Source: a virus. From it: a stretch of DNA of 64,000 nucleotides. The notes under the pieces were generated by a model. That model searched no databases. It was given only the letters and a program-made list of their open reading frames with translations, and was not told the DNA's origin. This document shows, piece by piece, positions 2,290 through 63,476 of this stretch. The position numbers and the translations under genes are program-made. The stretch is from the IMG/VR virus record IMGVR_UViG_3300023174_000061. One strand, written 5' to 3'. Position 1 is the stretch's first letter. Every line of letters starts with the position of its first letter.

Positions 2290-2871
2290 ATGTATTGCTT
2301 GGAATGTAATTCTCCTCTTGGAAAAAGACAAAAAAAATTCTGTTCTTGTAAATGTATGAATGTGTATAATGCAAGAGAATTTGGTATGAAGCACCGAGAA
2401 GAAAATCCAAATAGATACAAAATTTGTGAAGAATGCAATCAATCATTAAATCTCAATAAGTTTAGTTTAATTGAAAAATGGAATCCAAATTCTGACACTA
2501 AAAATACTTGTAAAAAATGTTCCGCAAAATTAAATGAAAAAAATAGAAGAGATAGAGATTGGAAAGTTGATGCTGCCAGACTTCTTTATAGTAATATAAA
2601 ATCAAGATGTAAAAGATTAGGAAGAGAATTCTCTATTGAGATGGAAGATATTATCATTCCAGAAAAATGCCCTGTATTTGGATTTGAATTAAAAAGAGAA
2701 GATAGGCAAACTTGGATGTGTGCTCCAAGTGTTGATAGAATAGACAGTTCCAAAGGGTACATAAAGGGAAATGTTACAGTTGTCAGCAGAAGAGCAAACA
2801 TCATCAAAAGAGATGCTACATTAGAAGAGTTAGAACAATTATTTAATTATTACAAAACTTTGAGGAACTAA
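2290..2871 (+). mobile_element. Free-standing HNH-type homing endonuclease with N-terminal Cys motifs
   Basis: CxxC motifs; CPVFG...PSVDRIDSSKGYIKGNVTVVSRRANIIK nuclease motif; own late promoter. Confidence 0.8.
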
Positions 2872-13847: not shown

Positions 13848-13891
13848 AAAATATATCCCCTCTTTCTAAATACAAGAAAGAGGGATTTTTT

Positions 13892-28467: not shown

Positions 28468-29106
28468 ATGCAAAATTTCTTTACAGTAACCTTGCCCCTT
28501 TTGGCAGCGGTTACGACCAATACGGCAACATTGCCTGGTTTATTTCCTCCTCCCCCTGTCGGTGGTCCTCCACCGTTTTCTGTTATTAAGGAGTTTGAGA
28601 CCAAGACAACGACCAAAGAGGTTGTTCCCGAAAAGCCAAAAGAGAAAAGGTTAATTTGTAAAGGGTGTAATGAAAATGAAAATGTTGCCCTGAATTATTT
28701 TCAGGACATTGGAATTACAGATAAAAACGCCCTTGCTACTATCATGGGCAACATTAAACAGGAATCAACATTTCAGTCTAATGTTTGCGAAGGTGGTAGT
28801 AAAACCAGTTGGAGTAACTGCGGAGGTGGTTACGGACTAATTCAATTTACTTCTGCCTCTCGTTATTATGGATTGGGTGCATTTGCTAAAAAAATAGGAG
28901 GTAATCCTTCACATCTTCATACTCAACTTCGGTATATTTCTACTGAACCGCAGTGGAAAAATATTGAAAATGGAATGAAAGTTCCTGGTAAATCCATTAA
29001 TAGGTATATGAATTATGCATACAAATGGATTGGGTGGGGACACGCAGGTTCAAGAACTAATTATGCTTATGACTATGCTAAAAGATTAGTTCTTGCTAAT
29101 GCCTAA
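28468..29106 (+). CDS. Lysozyme-like peptidoglycan hydrolase (phage tail lysozyme type) with signal-like N-terminus
   Basis: ALATIMGNIKQES...GYGLIQFT...TQLRY. Confidence 0.75.
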   Translation: MQNFFTVTLPLLAAVTTNTATLPGLFPPPPVGGPPPFSVIKEFETKTTTKEVVPEKPKEKRLICKGCNENENVALNYFQDIGITDKNALATIMGNIKQESTFQSNVCEGGSKTSWSNCGGGYGLIQFTSASRYYGLGAFAKKIGGNPSHLHTQLRYISTEPQWKNIENGMKVPGKSINRYMNYAYKWIGWGHAGSRTNYAYDYAKRLVLANA

Positions 29107-29114
29107 ATAACTTT

Positions 29115-29170
29115 ACCTGACTTGTGTGGTAACTTTTCGGGTATGATTGGAGTGTTTCGGCACTCCTTTC
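29115..29170 (+). ncRNA. Candidate antisense sRNA A
   Basis: CTAAATA promoter; TACCTGA/TCGGGTA stem; GGAGTG/CACTCC-TTT terminator; 15 nt complementary to 29186-29200. Confidence 0.6.
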
Positions 29171-29206
29171 TTGTATAAATAGTAATACCACACAAGTTAG
29201 AGTAGT

Positions 29207-29857
29207 ATGAAACACTTTTATGTCTATTATTCCTATGAGGAATATGGAAGAGGTTATATTGGAAAAAGAGAATGCAGTTGTCTTCCAGAAGAAGATGTAA
29301 GTTATTTTGGAAGTTTTCACGATAAAATTTTCAACCCAACTCAAAAAATTATTTTAGAAACTTTTGATAGTGTAGAAGAGGCACTTGAAGCAGAATGTGC
29401 TCTTCATAATTTTTATGAGGTAAATAAAAATCCACACTTTGCTAATAGAGCAAAACAAACTTCTACTGGATTTTATTGTAATAAAGGACCAAGTAAAGAA
29501 GCAAACAAAAAAAGAAGTGAGTTGATGAAAACAGAATATAATCCTATGAGTAATCCAGAACTTAAAGAGAAAGCAAAAAAAAATTTGATTAAGACTTTGA
29601 GTAATCCAGAAATTAAAAAGAAAAAAAGTATAAGTGGAAAATTAGCACACAATCAACCAGAAGTAATTGAGAAACATAGACAGGCAGCAATCAAATCCCA
29701 TCAAAATCCGGGAACAAAAAGGAAACATATTGAGGCAAAACTTGGTGAGAAAAATCCTTGTTATGGTAAAAAATGGATTACGAATGGAAATGAAAACAAA
29801 TATATAAATGCTACTGATAAGGTTCCAGATGGTTTTCGGTATGGTAGAGTTTTATAA
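29207..29857 (+). mobile_element. GIY-YIG-type homing endonuclease with basic NUMOD-like tail
   Basis: YVY...GYIGKR...YFGS...EALEAE..N; GEKNPCYGKKWITNG. Confidence 0.8.
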
Positions 29858-29879
29858 ATAACTAAAAAGTATTAGTAAA

Positions 29880-30392
29880 ATGGACGCACAAGAACTTCGC
29901 AATCTTCAAGAAGCATATATGGAAGTTGTTATGAATGAAAATACTTCAGATAAATTGGCAGCAAAAGCAAAACAAGTTGCACAATCTACTACTTCATCTC
30001 TATCAAGACAAGAAGTGTATCGACTTCTTTCTTTAAAAGCAAAAAAACGTGCTTCTGGAGGTACTCCAGTTGAACGAGGAAAACTTAGAAGAAAAGTATC
30101 TTCTGTACCTCAGGCGGATTTTGATAGTGATTTGAGTAGAAGTGGATTAACACAATCTAAGAGAGATGAAAGAAGATATACATCAGGAGCATCTATTGGT
30201 CCTGGTGGAATAACTAAAAACCGCAAGAAACTTCGTAAGCAAAAGGTTATGGGAGAATTTGGAGAACAAGCAGACATCTACGACATCATCCTCTCACACT
30301 TACTTGATGAGGGTTATGCCGAAACACCAGAAGCAGCAGAAGCAATTATGGTGAATATGAGTGAAGAGTGGAGAGATAGTATTGTTGGGTAG
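29880..30392 (+). CDS. Late protein with acidic N/C modules and basic core, probable internal head protein
   Basis: TATAAATA at 29853; MDAQELRNLQEAY...MNE; DIYDIILSHLLDEGYAET...NMSEEW. Confidence 0.65.
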   Translation: MDAQELRNLQEAYMEVVMNENTSDKLAAKAKQVAQSTTSSLSRQEVYRLLSLKAKKRASGGTPVERGKLRRKVSSVPQADFDSDLSRSGLTQSKRDERRYTSGASIGPGGITKNRKKLRKQKVMGEFGEQADIYDIILSHLLDEGYAETPEAAEAIMVNMSEEWRDSIVG

Positions 30393-30947: not shown

Positions 30948-31361
30948 ATGAACTTTAATTTTGGCAAACAAAAACCAGATATAAAGCAATATGCAATTAT
31001 AGGAATTGTATTGAGTTCTATTGTAGGATTACTTTCCCAATGTACTGGAATTAAACAGAATAATATTTGGGATTTACTTGATGAAGTTCAAAGAAGATAT
31101 TTTCCTCATAGCATTATCAACGAGTTTATACTTAAAGATCCAGAGAAACTTGACCGAAGAATACATCGTGATGTTGATGCAGCAATCGCAGAATATGAAC
31201 GGTTGACAGGGGATGATGGAAAGGTTAGAATACCTTCACCACGATACTCAGAGAAACCACCAGACGGGTCTTATGCCCAATCAGTTCTTGGTGGTGAAAT
31301 GAGATTGTGTGCTCCTTGGGTTGACGACTGCCCAAAAGATGCGAAATTAATTCAGCGGTAG
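30948..31361 (+). CDS. Membrane-anchored hypothetical protein
   Basis: N-terminal hydrophobic stretch; stop codon lies inside tRNA-Gly. Confidence 0.65.
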   Translation: MNFNFGKQKPDIKQYAIIGIVLSSIVGLLSQCTGIKQNNIWDLLDEVQRRYFPHSIINEFILKDPEKLDRRIHRDVDAAIAEYERLTGDDGKVRIPSPRYSEKPPDGSYAQSVLGGEMRLCAPWVDDCPKDAKLIQR

Positions 31362-31412
31362 AATGTCTGCCTTCCAAGCAGAACGTCAGGAGTTCGAATC
31401 TCCTATTTCGCT
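31341..31412 (+). tRNA. tRNA-Gly(UCC)
   Basis: GCGAAAT/ATTTCGC acceptor, TCTGC-CTTCCAA-GCAGA anticodon arm, AGGAG-TTCGAAT-CTCCT T arm, U73. Confidence 0.93.
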
Positions 31413-34854: not shown

Positions 34855-35289
34855 ATGCCTACTAGAGAACAAAAATTAGAAGCAAAAAGAAGATACTATC
34901 AAAAAAACAAAAATAAAATCAATCAAGAGTCTAGAGAAATCAACACCAGATTGAGATATGAGAAAAAGAATTTCATTATAGAAAATCTTGGTTCTAAATG
35001 TTGTGAGTGTGGGACTACCGATTGTCTAGAAATAGACCATATTAATCCTGGACTAAAAAAAGATAGAAGATGTCTTTATGTTTGTTCTTGGAATAGAATA
35101 AAAAGTGAGATGGATAATCTTCAACTTCTCTGCACTTATTGTCATCATAAAAAATCGCAATTACAGAGAGATACTGCTTGGTTTTGTTTCAAGTCTCTTC
35201 CGTTAGAAGAACAAGAAAACTTAATGAATCAGTATGAAAAAGAAGGTTCCACTTTACCTTCTTGGTCCCCACAAGATAAGGGACAATAA
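34855..35289 (+). mobile_element. HNH endonuclease inserted in the manA-type RNA
   Basis: CCECG...LEIDHINP...NLQLLCTYCHHKK; TATAAATA inside TATCCCATATA/TGTATGGGATA hairpin. Confidence 0.85.
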
Positions 35290-35299
35290 AAATTCTTGT

Positions 35300-35366
35300 T
35301 GGTGCGGATGGGACTCTCTCCCGCCTGGTTTCCAATTTCCAGTTAAAGAATTGGTGGCGTGCATGA
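35300..35366 (+). ncRNA. manA/wcaG-type RNA motif, 3' part
   Basis: GGTGCGGATGGG..CCCGCCTGGTTTCCAATTTCCAG..AATTGGTGGCGTGCATG; upstream of gmd. Confidence 0.72.
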
Positions 35367-35377
35367 AAGACCTAACG

Positions 35378-54136: not shown

Positions 54137-54838
54137 ATGAAAATAGATCTTCATAACTTTTTTCTACATTATGATGAAAAGAATCCAAAGCATGTTGCAG
54201 CAGTGGAGCAACTTGAAAAGGATTTGGAACAAAAGCAACCAGATTTGATTCAAGATGAATCTAACTGGGTAAGAATTTTCAGAGAGAAGGCACCAGTTCC
54301 TGCACAGACAGGAGTTTTGCCAGTCCCATATTACCCACAAACAGATAATTATAGAGATGCTAATCGTACTTGCAACAGCTCTTCTTGTGCTATGTGTCTT
54401 GAATATCTTAAACCAGGTACTCTAAAAGGAGCAAAGGGAGACGATGCCTACATTCAAAAGGTATTCGCAATTGGAGACTCAACAGATCACGCAGTTCAAA
54501 CCCGTGTTCTTGAGAGCTATGGTATTAAGTCATACTTTAGTTACAATCTTTCTTTTGCTGATCTTGATAAGAGTTTATCTGCTGGAAAGCCTGTTGTTAT
54601 TGGTATTCTGCACAGGGGTTCTCTTTCTGCACCTACTGGTGGGCATATGTTGTGTATAATAGGTAAAAGTCCTGATGGAAAATCGTATATTGTTAATGAC
54701 CCATATGGGGATTTGATGTCGGGTTATACTACACCCGTAAATAAAGGTAAAGGTGCCGTTTATCCTGTTGAAGTTCTAAAGCATAGATGGTTGGATAAGG
54801 GAAAGGATAAAACCGGATGGGGTAGAGTGTTTCGTTGA
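54137..54838 (+). CDS. Peptidase C39-like protein
   Basis: VPYYPQ.D...CNSSSCAM; GKPVV; GHM; NDPYG. Confidence 0.8.
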   Translation: MKIDLHNFFLHYDEKNPKHVAAVEQLEKDLEQKQPDLIQDESNWVRIFREKAPVPAQTGVLPVPYYPQTDNYRDANRTCNSSSCAMCLEYLKPGTLKGAKGDDAYIQKVFAIGDSTDHAVQTRVLESYGIKSYFSYNLSFADLDKSLSAGKPVVIGILHRGSLSAPTGGHMLCIIGKSPDGKSYIVNDPYGDLMSGYTTPVNKGKGAVYPVEVLKHRWLDKGKDKTGWGRVFR

Positions 54839-54849
54839 TAAATAAGAGT

Positions 54850-54906
54850 GTCTGTTTGGACGGCAATCTCTACAGATAAGATTAGGTGCTTTTAGGGCAC
54901 CTTTTC
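54850..54906 (+). ncRNA. Candidate antisense sRNA B
   Basis: GATAAATA promoter; GTCTGT/ACAGAT stem; AGGTGCT/GGCACCT-TTT terminator; 15 nt complementary to 54932-54946. Confidence 0.6.
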
Positions 54907-54954
54907 TATTATAAACTCTTATAAATAGTAATGCCGTCCAAGTAGAATAGAAAG

Positions 54955-55761
54955 ATGAAAGACCCTAAAAGGTTTTATACTTACGCATATTTGCGAGAAG
55001 ATAGAACTCCTTACTATATTGGTAAAGGAGAAGCAAGAAGAGCATACTCAAAGCATCATAGAGTTTCAGTCCCTCCTTTAGACCGAATATTATTCCTTAA
55101 GAAAAATCTTTTGGAGGAAGATGCTCTTAAGCACGAAGAATATATGATAAAAGTTTTTGGTAGAAAAGATAATGGGACTGGAATACTAGCAAATCTTACT
55201 GATGGTGGTGTTGCTACTAGTGGATATATTAGAACAGAGGAAGAAAAGGAATATTTGAGAAATCTCTGGAAAGGTGAAAAAAGTCCTCATTATGGGGTTC
55301 CAAAATCTCCGGAAGTTAGAATAAAAATGAGTGAAGCACAACTTGGTGAGAAAAATCATAGGTATGGTAAAAAACTGACGGAAGTGGAAAAGAGACAAAG
55401 AAGTGAAAAACTGAAGGGAAGACCTGCTCCTTGGAATAGTAGAAAACATACTAAAGAAGAAACCGAAAAAAGAATACAAAAAATGAAAGGAAGAAAATGG
55501 TGGAATAATGGAAAAAAAGAAAGTTTTTTATATGAACCACTTAATGAAACTTGGATTTTGGGTAGATTAAATAAAACTCTACCTCAAATGTGGGAACTTA
55601 TTTCTCCTGAAGGAGTTTTTTATATTACAAATAATCTTGCTTTATTTTGTAGGGAAAGGTTTGATAAATCATCATCAGTCCTTGCTAATGTTGCTTATGG
55701 AATAAACAAATCATATAAGGGTTATAAATGTCGCAAACTAACTAAATATGAGTATGCATAG
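54955..55761 (+). mobile_element. GIY-YIG-like homing endonuclease with NUMOD3-type repeats
   Basis: FYTYAYLREDRTPYYIGKG...E..MI..FGRKD..TGIL.NLTDGG; repeated GEK..YG. Confidence 0.82.
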
Positions 55762-57002: not shown

Positions 57003-57034
57003 GATGTTAAGGAATCAACACATTTCTTAATCTT

Positions 57035-57140
57035 CTGTAACCGAGATCATCAGAAGTAAAGCATCTCTCATACCTGTACTGGAGGGTGGTACTGGAATAT
57101 CTGTACTTGTTCAATTCCCCTTGGACTCATACTTACCCTT
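57035..57140 (+). ncRNA. PhotoRC-II-like psbA leader RNA
   Basis: ACCGAGA...TCTCTCATACC...GAGGGTGGTACTGGAA in psbA 5' UTR; motif recalled, not searched. Confidence 0.6.
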
Positions 57141-57149
57141 TTACGAAAA

Positions 57150-58441
57150 ATGACTGCTACTATTGCCTCACGCAATTCTACTAACCTCTGGAACGATTTC
57201 TGTTCCTGGGTTACTTCTACTAACAACCGTCTCTATGTGGGGTGGTTTGGTGTATTGATGATCCCAACGTTGCTTGCCGCAACGATTTGTTTCATCATCG
57301 CATTCGTTGGTGCTCCTCCTGTGGACATTGACGGCATTCGTGAACCTGTCTCTGGTTCATTAATGTACGGCAACAACATCATCTCTGGTGCCGTTGTGCC
57401 TTCTTCTAATGCTATTGGACTTCACTTCTATCCTATCTGGGAAGCTGCTTCCTTAGATGAATGGTTGTATAATGGTGGACCTTTTCAACTTGTTGTATTT
57501 CACTTCCTCATTGGCATCTACTGCTATATGGGACGTGAATGGGAACTCTCTTACCGTTTAGGTATGCGTCCTTGGATTATGGTTGCTTACTCAGCACCTG
57601 TTGCTGCTGCATCTGCTGTATTCCTGGTCTATCCTTTCGGTCAAGGTTCTTTCTCTGATGCTATGCCTCTTGGCATTTCTGGTACTTTTAACTATATGCT
57701 TGTCTTCCAGGCAGAACATAATATTCTGATGCACCCTTTTCATATGCTTGGAGTTGCTGGTGTCTTCGGTGGTTCATTGTTCTCTGCGATGCACGGTTCT
57801 CTTGTAACCTCATCGTTGGTTCGTGAAACTACTGAAACCGAAAGTCAGAACTATGGTTATAAGTTCGGACAAGAAGAAGAGACATACAACATCGTTGCTG
57901 CTCATGGTTATTTTGGTCGCCTTATTTTCCAATATGCGTCCTTTAATAACTCACGTTCACTGCACTTCTTTTTAGCAGCGTGGCCGGTAGTTGGTATCTG
58001 GTTTGCTGCTCTTGGTGTAAGTACCATGGCATTCAATTTGAACGGATTTAACTACAATGGTTCTATCATGGACAATCAAGAACGTGTAATTCCTACTTGG
58101 GCAGACATTCTTAACCGTGCTGGACTTGGATTTGAGGTCATGCACGAGCGTCAAGTTGTGCTTTGCGCTCTTTAAATCGGATGAATTGCTGGAAACCCCA
58201 AGTGGGCAATCAGCAGCCAAGTCTTAGATACATCTAAGAAAGGTTCAGAGACTACCTGAGGAATAGAGTTTCCTTAATAACAGGTTTAAGCGTCCGACAC
58301 CAGAGATGGTGATGATATAGTCCAATCCTGGTAGTAATACCAGACAGTTAAGGAAAGTTTAAGAATGCACACAACTTTCCTTTAGACCTTGCTACTGCTT
58401 CTATTACTGAAGTCGCATTACAAGCACCGTCAATCGGTTGA
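57150..58441 (+). CDS. psbA: Photosystem II D1 protein, spliced: 57150-58151 + 58364-58441 (359 aa)
   Basis: [27 protein letters not shown]; exon join restores EVMHER|[10 protein letters not shown]. Confidence 0.98.
58152..58363 (+). mobile_element. Group I intron (212 nt, no ORF) in psbA
   Basis: Exon ends in U and intron in G; GAGCGU/GCGCUC P1; AATTGCTGGAAA, AATCAGCAG, GTTCAGAGACTA, ATATAGTCC core elements. Confidence 0.95.
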
Positions 58442-58467
58442 TATAAAAACCAAATAATGGTATAATA

Positions 58468-58494
58468 AGGGAACTCTTCGGAGTTCCTTTTTTT
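58468..58494 (+). terminator. psbA terminator
   Basis: AGGGAACTC-TTCG-GAGTTCCTTTTTTT. Confidence 0.88.
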
Positions 58495-58510
58495 GTATAT
58501 AAATACTGAT

Positions 58511-58561
58511 ACCTGTGATGGTTCGCATCTATCAGGTGGAAAAGGTGCTCCGCACCTTTTC
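58511..58561 (+). ncRNA. Candidate antisense sRNA C
   Basis: TATAAATA promoter; ACCTG/CAGGT stem; AAAAGGTGC/GCACCTTTT terminator; 15 nt exactly complementary to 58577-58591. Confidence 0.62.
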
Positions 58562-58598
58562 TTGTATAAATAGTATTGCGAACCATCACAGAGTAGAA

Positions 58599-58997
58599 AT
58601 GTATTACACCTACGCATATTTGCGGGAAGACAAAACACCTTACTATATTGGTAAAGGTAAAGGAAATAGAATATTTAATAAAAATAAAGGTGATATAAGA
58701 CCACCAAAAGATAAGTCAAGAATAATCTTCCTTAAAAAGAACTTAACCGAAGCAGAAGCATTTAGACACGAAATCTATATGATTACTGTGTTTGGTAGAA
58801 AAGATTTAGAAACTGGTATATTAAGAAACAGAACCGATGGTGGTGAAGGTGCTTCTGGGCTTGTGATAAGTGAAGAAACAAGAAAAAAATTAAGTGAATT
58901 GAGAGTTGGTGAAAAAAATCCTAACTATGGGAAAGAAATGAGTGAAGAACAAAAACAAAAGAAACTTCAAGAATACATAAAGAAAAAGGAGAATTAA
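58599..58997 (+). mobile_element. GIY-YIG-like homing endonuclease with NUMOD3-type motif (short)
   Basis: YYTYAYLREDKTPYYIGKG...FGRKD..TGILRNRTDGGEG; paralogue of 54955. Confidence 0.8.
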
Positions 58998-59000
58998 AAG

Positions 59001-59663
59001 TTGGCGATTTTTTACAACCCCCGCACGATTACTGACGGACTCGTATTAGCACTTGATGCTGCGAACAGAAAGTCTTATCCTGGGTCTGGAACCACTTGGA
59101 CTGATTTGAGTGGTAGAGGTAATACAGGAACACTGACAAATGGACCGACTTATAGTAGTACAAATGGTGGGTCTATTGTTTTTGATGGGGTTGATGATTA
59201 TATTGATTTAAATACTAACAATATAATAACAGGAACAAATCCATTTACATTTGAGGCATTTTATACAATAACCAATACTTCAGTAAATGCAGAAATATTT
59301 GGTAATTATGGTCCTGGATATTCATTAAATACTATCTGGATTTCTGGTAGGTTTGGTGTATTTATTAATGGTTCAGTTCCATATTTTCAAGATCATCCAT
59401 TAGGTGCTGGCACTTATCATATGGCATTCACAAGAACTTCTACTGGAGATTGTATCTTATATAAGAATGGCATAGTAGATGGAACTGCAACAAGTACTAC
59501 TAGTATTCCAGTAGGACAGAATTTTAGAATTGGTTCTGATGTATATCAAATTGCTGAACAATTTGGAGGAAATCTTTATAATCTAAAAGTTTACAATAGA
59601 GTGCTCACCGCAGCAGAAATCTCACAAAACTTTAATGCTCTCCGTTCAAGGTTCTCAATATAA
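59001..59663 (+). CDS. LamG/concanavalin A-like lectin domain protein 1
   Basis: GLVLALDAAN.KSYPGSGTTWTDLSG...FDGVDDY...YNR.L...EI.QNFNA. Confidence 0.8.
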   Translation: MAIFYNPRTITDGLVLALDAANRKSYPGSGTTWTDLSGRGNTGTLTNGPTYSSTNGGSIVFDGVDDYIDLNTNNIITGTNPFTFEAFYTITNTSVNAEIFGNYGPGYSLNTIWISGRFGVFINGSVPYFQDHPLGAGTYHMAFTRTSTGDCILYKNGIVDGTATSTTSIPVGQNFRIGSDVYQIAEQFGGNLYNLKVYNRVLTAAEISQNFNALRSRFSI

Positions 59664-63367: not shown

Positions 63368-63390
63368 AAAATTAGTTGTATATATATTTG

Positions 63391-63446
63391 ACGTTCATTT
63401 GCTATTTGCGAATAGCAAACGGAAGTAGGAATACCGAAGGAACGCA
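63391..63446 (+). ncRNA. Glutamine riboswitch (Downstream-peptide type)
   Basis: CGTTCA-hairpin(TTTGCTATT/AATAGCAAA)-CGGAAGTAGG..CCGAAGGAACGC. Confidence 0.85.
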
Positions 63447-63476
63447 CCAATACCCACAAAGTAAAGGAGCACTCCA

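What the first reader, a model, noticed from the sequence alone, without database searches (positions are those of the whole stretch)
29103..29209. Dual late-promoter cassette making a cognate antisense sRNA for each GIY-YIG endonuclease (copy A of three)
Seen at three loci (29103, 54837, 58498) with the same layout: TAAATA, 5 nt, a short stem starting RYCTG whose arm and loop carry a 15-nt segment X, an intrinsic terminator, then TATAAATA-GTA(A/T), the reverse complement of X, and the ATG 6-8 nt later. Here X = CTGACTTGTGTGGTA and the leader is TACCACACAAGTTAG (one G-U). X differs between loci but always matches its own leader, which is natural covariation. The mismatches are G-U, favouring RNA-RNA pairing. 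Known: T4 endonuclease genes use simple cis hairpins around one late promoter, as at 2258, 13866 and 34822 here. That does not explain the extra promoter, loop presentation and terminator. Inference: each nuclease carries its own ~55-nt trans-acting antisense repressor, like a type I antitoxin with orthogonal specificity. An RNA-guide role for the protein is a less likely alternative. I know of no description of this arrangement.
Basis: partly seen in the sequence, partly recalled or inferred. Interest (0 to 1): 0.88.

Follow-up and report, generated by a model that had tools for sequence, protein, structure and literature searches.

The report
Homing-nuclease control cassette with candidate sRNA
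Mobile nuclease genes in this T4-like cyanophage carry a portable control region in which the sequence that masks the gene's ribosome-binding site has its own late promoter and terminator, so it is probably made as a separate ~55-60-base RNA; this extends the known in-cis hairpin control of phage homing endonucleases but still needs RNA evidence.

Summary
The layout is a late-promoter box, a 5' hairpin carrying X, an intrinsic terminator, TATAAATA, then leader X' ending 6-8 nt before the ATG.

It is a widespread portable cassette. I collected 67 distinct copies from IMG/VR contigs and phage S-SRM01, and an unseeded pattern scan added 63 verified matches.

- The first box is always N[A/C]TAAATA, the same motif class that shows strand bias in this window.
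- Hairpin 1 starts at the predicted +1.
- Cognate X/X' duplexes average -21.9 kcal/mol, against -10.9 for non-cognate pairs.
- Non-Watson-Crick positions are G.U (59), never A.C.
- The cassette precedes unrelated nuclease families (GIY-YIG-like, Endonuclease VII, HNH), not only GIY-YIG.

The inverted repeat around a late promoter is the known T4/Aeh1 cis control, already noted in metagenomic loci (Dassa 2009). The first promoter, the 5'-terminal hairpin and the terminator between the arms are not described in the papers I found.

A discrete trans-acting late sRNA is the best explanation (about 0.55) but is unproven. A minority of homologues lack the first promoter. It is not a type I toxin-antitoxin.

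This scan has noted the same cassette in other genomes.

The parts
29102..29109 (+). Cassette A, first late-promoter box P1 (CCTAAATA). It overlaps the TAA stop of the upstream tail-lysozyme gene. Predicted +1 is 29115.
   Evidence: The N[A/C]TAAATA class is strand-biased in the window and present in 67/67 cassettes.
29115..29173 (+). Cassette A, candidate 59-nt late RNA. It comprises hairpin 1 (29115-29142, carrying X at 29117-29131), the terminator stem-loop (29149-29166) and the T-tract.
   Evidence: dG -20.5, z -4.3; terminator-like site.
29174..29181 (+). Cassette A, second late promoter P2 (TATAAATA). Predicted +1 is 29187.
29186..29200 (+). Cassette A, leader X' (TACCACACAAGTTAG). It is complementary to X with one G.U and ends 6 nt before the ATG.
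29207..29857 (+). Nuclease gene A (216 aa). It is a homologue of S-PM2p181 and matches PHROG 314, homing endonuclease. Its stop codon lies inside the TATAAATA of the next late gene.
54837..54844 (+). Cassette B, P1 box (GATAAATA), directly after the TGA stop of the upstream gene. Predicted +1 is 54850.
54850..54911 (+). Cassette B, candidate ~60-nt late RNA. It comprises hairpin 1 (54850-54877, with X at about 54851-54865), the terminator (54884-54902) and the T-tract.
   Evidence: dG -21.7, z -4.5.
54920..54927 (+). Cassette B, P2 (TATAAATA). Predicted +1 is 54933.
54932..54946 (+). Cassette B, leader X' (TGCCGTCCAAGTAGA).
54955..55761 (+). Nuclease gene B (268 aa). It has a NUMOD3 motif and a partial TIGR01453 (group I intron endonuclease) match.
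58498..58505 (+). Cassette C, P1 box (TATAAATA), just after the psbA terminator. Predicted +1 is 58511.
58511..58564 (+). Cassette C, candidate 54-nt late RNA. It comprises hairpin 1 (58511-58537, with X at 58513-58527) and the terminator (58538-58564).
   Evidence: dG -24.6, z -5.2.
58565..58572 (+). Cassette C, P2 (TATAAATA). Predicted +1 is 58578.
58577..58591 (+). Cassette C, leader X' (TGCGAACCATCACAG). It is the perfect complement of X and ends 7 nt before the ATG.
58599..58997 (+). Nuclease gene C (132 aa). It has a GIY-YIG-like N-terminus and a NUMOD3 motif. It is short compared with relatives of 140-330 aa.

Best explanation
This is a portable translational-control cassette of free-standing homing-endonuclease genes in T4-like cyanophages.

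How it works:
- An 'anti-leader' X pairs with the whole ~20-nt leader X' of the nuclease mRNA, up to 3-6 nt before the AUG, and so blocks ribosome binding.
- Unlike the classic T4 design, X lies in its own small transcription unit. That unit is a gp55-type late promoter (N[A/C]TAAATA), a 5'-terminal hairpin that shows part of X in its loop, and an intrinsic terminator.
- A second late promoter (TATAAATA) then starts the nuclease mRNA exactly at X'.

Inference: late in infection a 52-72-nt RNA is made. It pairs in trans with the cognate mRNA and damps nuclease translation. Any transcript that reads through the terminator, from upstream promoters or from P1, is silenced in cis by the same pairing.

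Shown here: the anatomy, its conservation, the covariation, RNA-level pairing on the + strand, favourable thermodynamics, and portability between nuclease families.

Inferred only: that P1 fires, that the terminator works, that a discrete RNA accumulates, and that the effect is repression.
For: 1. The P1 core TAAATA is invariant in 39/39 aligned cassettes, while the flanks and X are saturated with changes.
2. In 67 distinct cassettes position -12 is A (43) or C (24), never G or T. The predicted +1 is a purine in 66/67 at both promoters, and -5..-1 is about 80% A+T.
3. In the window, N[A/C]TAAATA is strand-biased while other variants are not: TA 15:0, TC 9:0, AA 6:1, GA 3:0, against TT 13:7 and AT 8:7. 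Published late-promoter variants are NATAAATA in cyanophages (PMC2984593) and a/gC at -13/-12 in Aeh1, with the box about one helical turn upstream of the start and numbered from -13 (PMC2988020).
4. Hairpin 1 starts at +1 (61/67) or +2 (6/67) of the predicted P1 RNA. It has 32 stem variants with compensatory changes.
5. The contiguous X:X' helix ends at -1 of the P1 start in 43/67 and at -1 of the P2 start in 54/67.
6. Cognate duplexes average -21.9 +/- 2.3 kcal/mol, non-cognate -10.9 +/- 4.4, shuffled -9.1.
7. Net hybridisation, including the cost of opening hairpin 1, is -14.4 +/- 2.1 for cognate pairs and -4.3 for non-cognate pairs.
8. The helices hold 59 G.U pairs and no A.C mismatches.
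9. P1 is cassette-borne. The empty site between the lysozyme gene and the next late gene (L214, L218) has only a terminator and TATAAATA. No promoter repeat is general at the 3' end of the nuclease genes.
10. The same cassette heads unrelated nuclease families.
11. In an unseeded pattern scan, all 63 matches with a cognate duplex of -15 kcal/mol or better carry N[A/C]TAAATA. Four weak-duplex matches have AT, TG or GC there.
Against: - No RNA evidence exists. The only RNA run holding related sequence is contigs with a small share of the words. The cyanophages I checked as transcriptome models (S-PM2, Syn9, P-SSM2, P-HM2) lack the cassette.
- Class-2 homologues (L015, L022, L026, L033, L035) have no P1. 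They place X in a single terminator-like hairpin after the upstream stop codon, so cis action, or 3'-end-derived RNA, suffices there.
- The cis mechanism has experimental precedent in T4 and Aeh1. A trans mechanism has none in T4-like phages in the papers I found.
- In some cassettes the U-tract after the terminator is weak: 3-4 U in the next 9 nt, with the hairpin abutting TATAAATA.
- All cassettes descend from a common ancestor, so the counts are not independent events.
Confidence: 0.55

Rival explanations
1. Cis-only control, as in T4 I-TevI, segB, Aeh1 mobE and genes e and soc. The terminator insulates the nuclease gene from upstream transcription. Residual read-through RNA is silenced by the X:X' hairpin, and only P2 transcripts are translated. 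The first box is inactive, or active without regulatory consequence.
For: - This mechanism is shown experimentally for T-even and Aeh1 endonuclease genes (PMC2988022).
- It has been proposed for metagenomic GIY-YIG and Vsr genes with TATAAATA inside the hairpin (PMC2677866).
- Read-through RNAs fold into the X:X' helix with z -5.1 to -6.4.
- Class-2 relatives work without a first promoter.
- Simple hairpins of this kind exist in the same window at 13866 and 34822.
- Several S-SRM01 cassettes sit among runs of small ORFs that look like early genes to me, where read-through is the expected problem.
Against: - It does not explain the invariant TAAATA with promoter-like constraints at -12 and +1.
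- It does not explain the fixed 4-6-nt spacing to a hairpin that starts at the predicted +1.
- It does not explain the compensatory conservation of hairpin 1, whose 3' arm plays no part in X:X'.
- It does not explain why the first box arrives with the cassette.
Confidence: 0.3
2. A discrete anti-leader RNA exists but acts positively, or only on stability. Pairing with the extreme 5' end of the P2 mRNA would protect it from 5'-end-dependent decay (RNase E or RNase J of the cyanobacterial host) or direct RNase III processing, rather than simply repressing translation.
For: - The duplex starts at nucleotide +1 of the mRNA in 67/67 cassettes.
- The 5' end of the P2 mRNA is otherwise unstructured, z about 0 in two of the three window cassettes (-2.6 in B, from coding-region structure).
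- From memory: cyanobacterial antisense RNAs can protect the psbA 5' UTR from RNase E.
Against: - The duplex covers the whole leader to within 3-6 nt of the AUG, and in class 2 it covers the AUG itself. That should prevent 30S binding.
- The homologous cis hairpins are repressive in T4 and Aeh1 (PMC2988022).
Confidence: 0.07
3. The small RNA is made by processing, not by initiation. The AU-rich box followed by a stem-loop would be an RNase E-type cleavage site in upstream transcripts. The anti-leader RNA would then be a 3'-end-derived fragment of the upstream mRNA.
For: - Class-2 cassettes place X in the terminator of the upstream gene.
- Processing of an Aeh1 mobE transcript at an RNase E-like site is recalled from the abstract of Gibb and Edgell 2007, a paper listed in PMC2988022 but not read here.
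Against: - The box obeys exactly the sequence rules of the strand-biased late-promoter class, including a purine at +1 and an A+T-rich -5..-1.
- The second promoter shares the same initiation context.
Confidence: 0.05
4. A DNA-level element. The inverted repeat would act as a cruciform or recombination site, or as the boundary of a mobile promoter/stem-loop cassette, or X would guide the nuclease.
For: - The cassette is clearly mobile and shared between nuclease families.
- One contig keeps the cassette after precise loss of the nuclease ORF (L293).
Against: - There are 59 G.U pairs against 0 A.C mismatches, so pairing is selected in + strand RNA, not in DNA.
- There is no flanking repeat at the 3' end in general.
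- Unrelated nuclease folds share the cassette, which argues against a protein-specific guide.
- The only complement of X in the window is its own leader.
Confidence: 0.03

Closest known systems
RBS-sequestering hairpins with an embedded late promoter at T-even and Aeh1 homing endonuclease genes (I-TevI, I-TevII, I-TevIII, segB, Aeh1 mobE; also T4 genes e and soc). See PMC2988022.
   Same: - The inverted repeat flanks TATAAATA.
- The 3' arm covers the ribosome-binding region.
- The late mRNA starts between the arms and so escapes repression.
- The regulated gene is a homing endonuclease.
   Different: - Here the two arms are about 50 nt apart, with an intrinsic terminator between them.
- The 5' arm is folded in a conserved hairpin of its own.
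- The 5' arm is preceded, at fixed spacing, by a second conserved late-promoter box.
- It can therefore be made as a separate RNA, at the same time as the mRNA.
Hairpins upstream of free-standing GIY-YIG and Vsr-like endonuclease genes in 'fractured gene' loci of ocean metagenomes (Dassa et al. 2009, PMC2677866).
   Same: - These are environmental phage-like endonuclease genes.
- Hairpins were found in 15 of 16 5' UTRs, ten of them including TATAAATA.
- Two conserved motifs complement each other.
- One locus keeps the hairpin after loss of the endonuclease gene.
- The hairpin is shared between nuclease families.
   Different: - It was interpreted purely as a cis translational hairpin.
- No upstream promoter, 5'-terminal hairpin or internal terminator appears in the passages I read.
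c4 antisense RNA of the immI region of phages P1 and P7 (recalled from memory: Citron and Schuster 1990).
   Same: - A small antisense RNA is encoded upstream of its target, on the same strand.
- It pairs with the ribosome-binding region of the downstream message.
- The RNA/target pair co-varies and sets specificity.
   Different: - c4 is cut out of the same transcript by processing, and uses two short loop segments.
- Here the RNA has its own promoter and terminator and one 15-20-nt stretch.
- The target here is a homing endonuclease, not an antirepressor operon.
Type I toxin-antitoxin pairs with separately encoded sRNAs (tisB/istR-1, zor/orz; from memory).
   Same: A short RNA with limited complementarity to the 5' leader would hold down translation of a potentially harmful protein.
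   Different: - The targets here are 130-330-aa nucleases, not small membrane peptides.
- The arrangement is tandem on the same strand.
- Nothing is known about differential stability or addiction.
- It is not a member of this family.
Short terminated transcripts from phage late promoters (lambda 6S RNA; StxS from PR'-tR', PMC7547250).
   Same: A late promoter followed almost at once by an intrinsic terminator gives a short RNA that can act as a regulator.
   Different: Those RNAs arise from an antitermination switch and act on host targets. Here there is no antiterminator, and the predicted target is the next gene.
CfrI antisense RNA of cyanophage S-PM2 (Millard et al. 2010, cited in PMC2984593).
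   Same: It is a non-coding RNA of a T4-like cyanophage associated with a homing endonuclease gene next to an intron-bearing psbA.
   Different: CfrI is about 225 nt and transcribed from the opposite strand across the psbA/F-CphI junction. S-PM2 has no cassette of the present kind.

Membership tests
T-even type late-promoter/RBS hairpin control of homing endonuclease genes | Inverted repeat whose 3' arm sequesters the ribosome-binding region | tested here: met
   The helix is 10-16 bp (median 15) and ends 2-9 nt, mostly 3-6 nt, before the AUG in 67 cassettes. See the folds.
T-even type late-promoter/RBS hairpin control of homing endonuclease genes | Late promoter lies between the arms, so the late mRNA lacks the 5' arm | tested here: met
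   TATAAATA is present in 64/67. The predicted +1 falls at the first base of X'. Starts are predicted, not mapped.
T-even type late-promoter/RBS hairpin control of homing endonuclease genes | 5' arm supplied only by early or middle transcripts reading in from upstream | tested here: not met
   A terminator separates the arms, and the 5' arm has its own conserved late-promoter box. Class-2 relatives do fit this feature.
Base-pairing small RNA gene (own promoter, intrinsic terminator, target at the translation start) | Own promoter | tested here: inconclusive
   The motif is N[A/C]TAAATA in 67/67 and in all 63 verified matches of the pattern scan. It belongs to the strand-biased class in the window and has a purine at +1. 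Promoter activity was not measured.
Base-pairing small RNA gene (own promoter, intrinsic terminator, target at the translation start) | Intrinsic terminator giving a discrete 3' end | tested here: inconclusive
   A G+C-rich stem-loop is present in every cassette, and the scan finds terminator-like sites in A and B. The U-tract is only 3-4 U of 9 in most copies.
Base-pairing small RNA gene (own promoter, intrinsic terminator, target at the translation start) | Specific complementarity to the target, kept by covariation | tested here: met
Base-pairing small RNA gene (own promoter, intrinsic terminator, target at the translation start) | Discrete RNA detected and active in trans | not testable with these tools
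   Only one metatranscriptome run was found. It is held as contigs and holds a small share of the words.
Type I toxin-antitoxin system | Toxin is a small (under about 60 aa) hydrophobic peptide | tested here: not met
   The targets are nucleases of 132-268 aa here, and up to about 330 aa elsewhere.
Type I toxin-antitoxin system | Unstable antisense RNA with a stable toxin mRNA (addiction) | not testable with these tools
   No expression or stability data are available.
P1/P7 c4-type same-strand antisense RNA | Antisense RNA encoded upstream of its target on the same strand | tested here: met
P1/P7 c4-type same-strand antisense RNA | RNA released by processing from the common transcript; two short pairing segments | tested here: not met
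   The unit has its own promoter box and terminator and a single 15-20-nt pairing stretch. No Rfam family matches the cassettes.
GIY-YIG nuclease family (for the three downstream genes) | Match to the GIY-YIG catalytic domain | tested here: inconclusive
   - Pfam PF01541 is not reported even at E <= 1.
- The TIGR01453 match is partial: 7.3e-12 for B and 7.7e-4 for C, both below the curated cut-off.
- Y..Y, YYIGKG, R, E and N are invariant in 36 relatives.
- The model has pLDDT 70. The best fold hits are UvrC GIY-YIG domains at probability 0.96 but E 0.12.
- Other cassette-linked genes do pass: PF01541 at 3.9e-6 in L242.

The most novel reading that the evidence does not exclude
Each homing-endonuclease cassette encodes its own late, trans-acting anti-leader sRNA, made from a gp55-type promoter. 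It has a 5'-terminal display hairpin and a terminator.

These cyanophages would then carry a family of sequence-orthogonal sRNA/leader pairs that travel with nuclease genes of unrelated folds. The pairs would set a threshold on nuclease translation.

This would be the first trans-acting regulatory sRNA system in T4-like phages that I know of. It would also be a natural set of portable, orthogonal riboregulators.
Probability: 0.5. Interest if true: 0.8.

Novelty: new variant of a known kind. Interest (0 to 1): 0.62.

Why it matters
Free-standing homing endonucleases must be expressed just enough to spread without harming the phage or disturbing neighbouring genes.

The known answer in T4 is a cis hairpin that silences early read-through RNA. 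This cassette adds a promoter and a terminator to the silencing arm. That would let the phage also damp the late, translatable mRNA. It would also let the whole control unit move as one piece between nuclease families and insertion sites.

If the small RNA is real, three things follow:
- It adds trans-acting riboregulation to the biology of T4-like phages.
- It explains a conserved non-coding element present in hundreds of environmental cyanophage contigs.
- It offers naturally orthogonal sRNA/leader pairs for engineering.

S-SRM01, a cultured phage with seven copies, makes the test direct.

Tried and rejected
- **RNA evidence.** One search of public runs found a single freshwater metatranscriptome, held as contigs, with 0.06 of the sampled words. 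When laid on the window it mostly covers psbA. It gives no starts or ends. It shows only one contig of a related (S-SRM01 gp114-like) cassette that spans the second promoter, which could be read-through RNA or DNA. I do not use it as evidence.
- **Cyanophages checked as transcriptome models** (S-PM2, Syn9, P-SSM2, P-HM2). None has the cassette; the single hit is a tRNA.
- **Rfam.** Nothing matches the cassettes.
- **RNAalifold on a MAFFT alignment.** It predicted no pairs because the variable hairpins were misaligned. I replaced it with per-sequence folding and duplex statistics.
- **Duplex search with long flanks.** It added weak A-U pairs and was uninformative.
- **Flanking promoter repeat as an insertion scar.** This is not general. 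The 9-nt repeat TAAATAACT around cassette A is explained by the conserved promoter of the downstream gene.
- **DSL-LC03 as an empty site.** The gene order differs. L214 and L218 served instead.
- **Own genome.** It is not held.
- **Supplement of Dassa et al.** It is not held.
- **PDB sequence search for gene B.** No meaningful hit.
- **S-SRM01 genome paper.** It mentions no promoters or cassettes.
Full report
**Context**

The window is a low-G+C (33%) T4-like cyanomyovirus. It carries psbA and a tail lysozyme gene. All 15 TATAAATA sites are on the + strand. No near-identical record exists in the phage collection. The closest cultured relative is the freshwater Synechococcus phage S-SRM01. No whole genome is held for the window.

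**Observation**

Each has these parts in order:
- a late-promoter-like box (CCTAAATA 29102, GATAAATA 54837, TATAAATA 58498);
- 5 nt, then a short hairpin whose 5' arm and loop carry X;
- a G+C-rich stem-loop with a T-tract;
- TATAAATA-GTA(A/T);
- the complement X';
- the ATG 6-8 nt later.

The candidate 54-62-nt RNAs fold into two hairpins with z = -4.3 to -5.2. RNAs that continue into the gene form a 15-17-bp X:X' helix enclosing the terminator, z = -5.1 to -6.4. RNAs started at the second promoter leave X' unpaired; overall z is about 0 for A and C and -2.6 for B, where the structure lies in the coding region.

Cognate duplexes are -25.2, -23.4 and -28.7 kcal/mol, and cross pairs are -5 to -12. 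Each X has no better complement in the 64 kb than its own leader. No other [A/C]TAAATA in the window is followed by a comparable fold.

**The genes**

B and C carry NUMOD3 and match PHROG homing-endonuclease families. A is a homologue of S-PM2p181, the gene next to F-CphI.

They look like diverged GIY-YIG enzymes:
- Y-Y, YYIGKG, R, E and N are invariant in 36 relatives.
- TIGR01453 matches in part.
- The best fold matches are UvrC GIY-YIG domains.

None passes Pfam GIY-YIG, so I call them GIY-YIG-like.

**The cassette is widespread and portable**

Relatives of gene C (531 in IMG/VR, best 80 fetched) and of gene A (46 loci) nearly all carry the same layout. S-SRM01 has seven copies, all on the coding strand.

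I assembled 67 distinct 'class 1' cassettes. Of the 80 distinct matches parsed from the 80 loci returned, 63 had a cognate duplex of -15 kcal/mol or better.

The genes behind these cassettes belong to unrelated nuclease families:
- several GIY-YIG subfamilies (PF01541, 3.9e-6);
- Endonuclease VII (PF02945, 6.8e-23; also S-SRM01 gp066);
- HNH-type N-termini with NUMOD3, and others.

So the element is a control module of homing endonuclease genes in general, not of one protein. This makes an RNA-guide role very unlikely.

**Is the first box a promoter?**

Several independent properties say it behaves like one.

1. TAAATA is invariant in 39/39 aligned cassettes. The spacer, the hairpin and X are saturated with change, and the sequence upstream of the box is unrelated between insertion sites.
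2. Position -12 is A (43) or C (24) and never G or T. Position -13 is free.
3. N[A/C]TAAATA is exactly the strand-biased class in this window: TA 15:0, TC 9:0, AA 6:1, GA 3:0. TT and AT variants are unbiased at 13:7 and 8:7.
4. This agrees with published variants: NATAAATA in cyanophages (PMC2984593), and A(-13) in T4 and a/gC at -13/-12 in Aeh1 (PMC2988020).
5. Taking the 8-bp box as -13 to -6 (my placement, from the review's -13/-12 numbering and 'about one helical turn upstream of the start'), the predicted +1 is a purine in 66/67 cassettes at both promoters. Both have an A+T-rich -5..-1 of about 80%.
6. The box comes with the cassette. In contigs where the lysozyme gene directly precedes the next late gene (L214, L218), the junction has a terminator and that gene's own TATAAATA, and no box at the stop codon. 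A promoter repeat at the 3' end of the nuclease gene is not general.

**Geometry**

Hairpin 1 starts at +1 (61/67) or +2 (6/67) of the predicted first transcript. It spans 22-29 nt and has 32 stem variants with compensatory changes, for example C-G versus U-A at pair 3 and G-C, U-A or A-U at pair 5.

Its 5' arm is also part of X. That arm therefore has two alternative partners that both co-vary with it: the 3' arm of hairpin 1, and the AUG-proximal part of the leader.

The contiguous X:X' helix stops at -1 of the first start in 43/67 and at -1 of the second start in 54/67. It covers the leader (median 20 nt) to within 3-6 nt of the AUG.

Non-Watson-Crick positions are 59 G.U and no A.C, so pairing is selected in + strand RNA and not in DNA.

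Across all cassettes, cognate duplexes average -21.9 +/- 2.3 kcal/mol, non-cognate -10.9 +/- 4.4, and shuffled leaders -9.1. Counting the cost of opening hairpin 1, the two-RNA complex is favoured by -14.4 +/- 2.1 kcal/mol for cognate pairs and -4.3 for non-cognate pairs. The terminator hairpin stays intact in the complex.

**What is already known**

Hairpins that hide the ribosome-binding site in read-through RNA, with a late promoter inside so that late mRNA escapes, are established for I-TevI, I-TevII, I-TevIII, segB and Aeh1 mobE, and for T4 genes e and soc (PMC2988022).

Dassa et al. (PMC2677866) reported such hairpins, ten of them including TATAAATA, upstream of free-standing GIY-YIG and Vsr-like genes in ocean metagenomes. 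They described two mutually complementary conserved motifs, and one locus that kept the hairpin after losing the nuclease gene. So the inverted repeat and its cis reading are not new.

In the same window, simple hairpins of the classic type occur at 13866 and 34822; the latter heads an HNH gene. The one at 2258 is not significant.

I found no description of a second promoter, a 5'-terminal hairpin or a terminator between the arms. I checked these papers, the S-SRM01 genome paper, and searches for phage sRNAs linked to homing endonucleases. My literature access is limited to open-access text.

**Counter-evidence**

- A minority of relatives ('class 2': L015, L022, L026, L033, L035, and S-SRM01 gp152) have no valid first box. 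X lies in the apical part of a single long terminator-like hairpin placed directly after the upstream stop codon, and X' overlaps the AUG. That design can only work in cis on read-through RNA, or through the 3' end of the upstream mRNA.
- Other relatives have no cassette at all.
- No RNA data are available.
- The U-tracts are often modest.

**Conclusion**

The cis function is very likely, because it follows from the fold and from strong precedent. The cis model leaves three things unexplained:
- a box conserved under promoter-specific constraints;
- its fixed spacing to a conserved hairpin that begins at the predicted start;
- the terminator that makes this a closed unit.

A small late RNA explains all three. 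If it is made, pairing with the unstructured 5' end of the cognate mRNA is thermodynamically strongly favoured.

I therefore put the dual-mode reading (trans sRNA plus cis silencing of read-through) at about 0.55 and cis-only at about 0.30. The rest goes to an RNA that stabilises or activates, to an RNA made by processing, and to DNA-level roles.

Mechanistically the closest trans analogue is the same-strand c4 RNA of P1 and P7 (from memory). It is not a type I toxin-antitoxin.

Other readers and one follow-up agent of this scan noted the same cassette in this and other genomes. That is agreement of readings, not independent evidence.

Noticed in passing
window 58142-58344 (with psbA 57150-58175 and exon 2 to about 58442): A group I intron interrupts psbA (Rfam RF00028, 89.6 bits). 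The GIY-YIG-like gene C lies just downstream. This recalls the S-PM2 psbA intron with its neighbouring free-standing endonuclease. Gene C is only 132 aa, against 140-330 aa in relatives; L004, identical over residues 1-121, has 221 aa. It may be truncated.
   Followed up: partly
window 58438-58490: A near-consensus sigma70-type promoter (TTGATA-17-TATAAT with TG, 11/12) sits between the psbA stop and the psbA terminator hairpin. It would start transcription inside or just before that hairpin. The same arrangement is present in the closest contigs L004 and L005.
   Followed up: no
window, whole (for example 13865, 54109, 61360): TCTAAATA occurs 9 times on the + strand and never on the - strand, several times 19-20 nt before an ORF start. 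It looks like a second late-promoter class, like the Aeh1 variant.
   Followed up: partly
L293:4406-4700 (IMGVR_UViG_3300020183_003071): This is an orphan cassette. The nuclease ORF is precisely deleted, from codon 3 to the leader of the next late gene. Both promoters, hairpin 1, the terminator and a perfectly matching X/X' remain and now head the host late gene. L295 may be a second case.
   Followed up: partly
window 29853-29882 and loci L147-L226: The late gene at 29880 has a very conserved promoter and leader (TATAAATAaCTAAAAAGTATTnnTAAAATGGAC). Many different genes, including several nuclease genes, end exactly inside its TATAAATA. The site looks like an insertion hot spot where the nuclease stop codon is embedded in the host promoter.
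   Followed up: partly
L015, L022, L026, L033, L035; L094:1560-1670 (S-SRM01 gp152): This is a second cassette architecture without a first promoter. X sits in the apical part of one long GGGG...CCCC terminator-like hairpin right after the upstream stop codon, and X' overlaps the AUG.
   Followed up: partly
window 35263-35368, 63390-63448, 57018-57108, 31341-31412: Rfam matches above gathering score: wcaG RNA, glutamine riboswitch, PhotoRC-II (just upstream of psbA) and one tRNA.
   Followed up: no
window 59101, 60041, 60757: The 16-mer CTGATTTGAGTGGTAG occurs three times on the + strand. The first copy lies in the concanavalin/Laminin_G_3-like gene (59001-59663). I did not identify the genes at the other two copies. 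It is probably a repeat within paralogous genes.
   Followed up: no
L128 (upstream of its A-family gene): The first promoter box is duplicated in tandem (TAAATAaaaccTAAATA).
   Followed up: no
window 2290-2871 and 34855-35289: Two further nuclease genes lie in the window, one Endonuclease VII-like and one HNH. They have only a single late promoter. 34822 has a clear classic hairpin (z -4.1); 2258 has none that is significant.
   Followed up: partly
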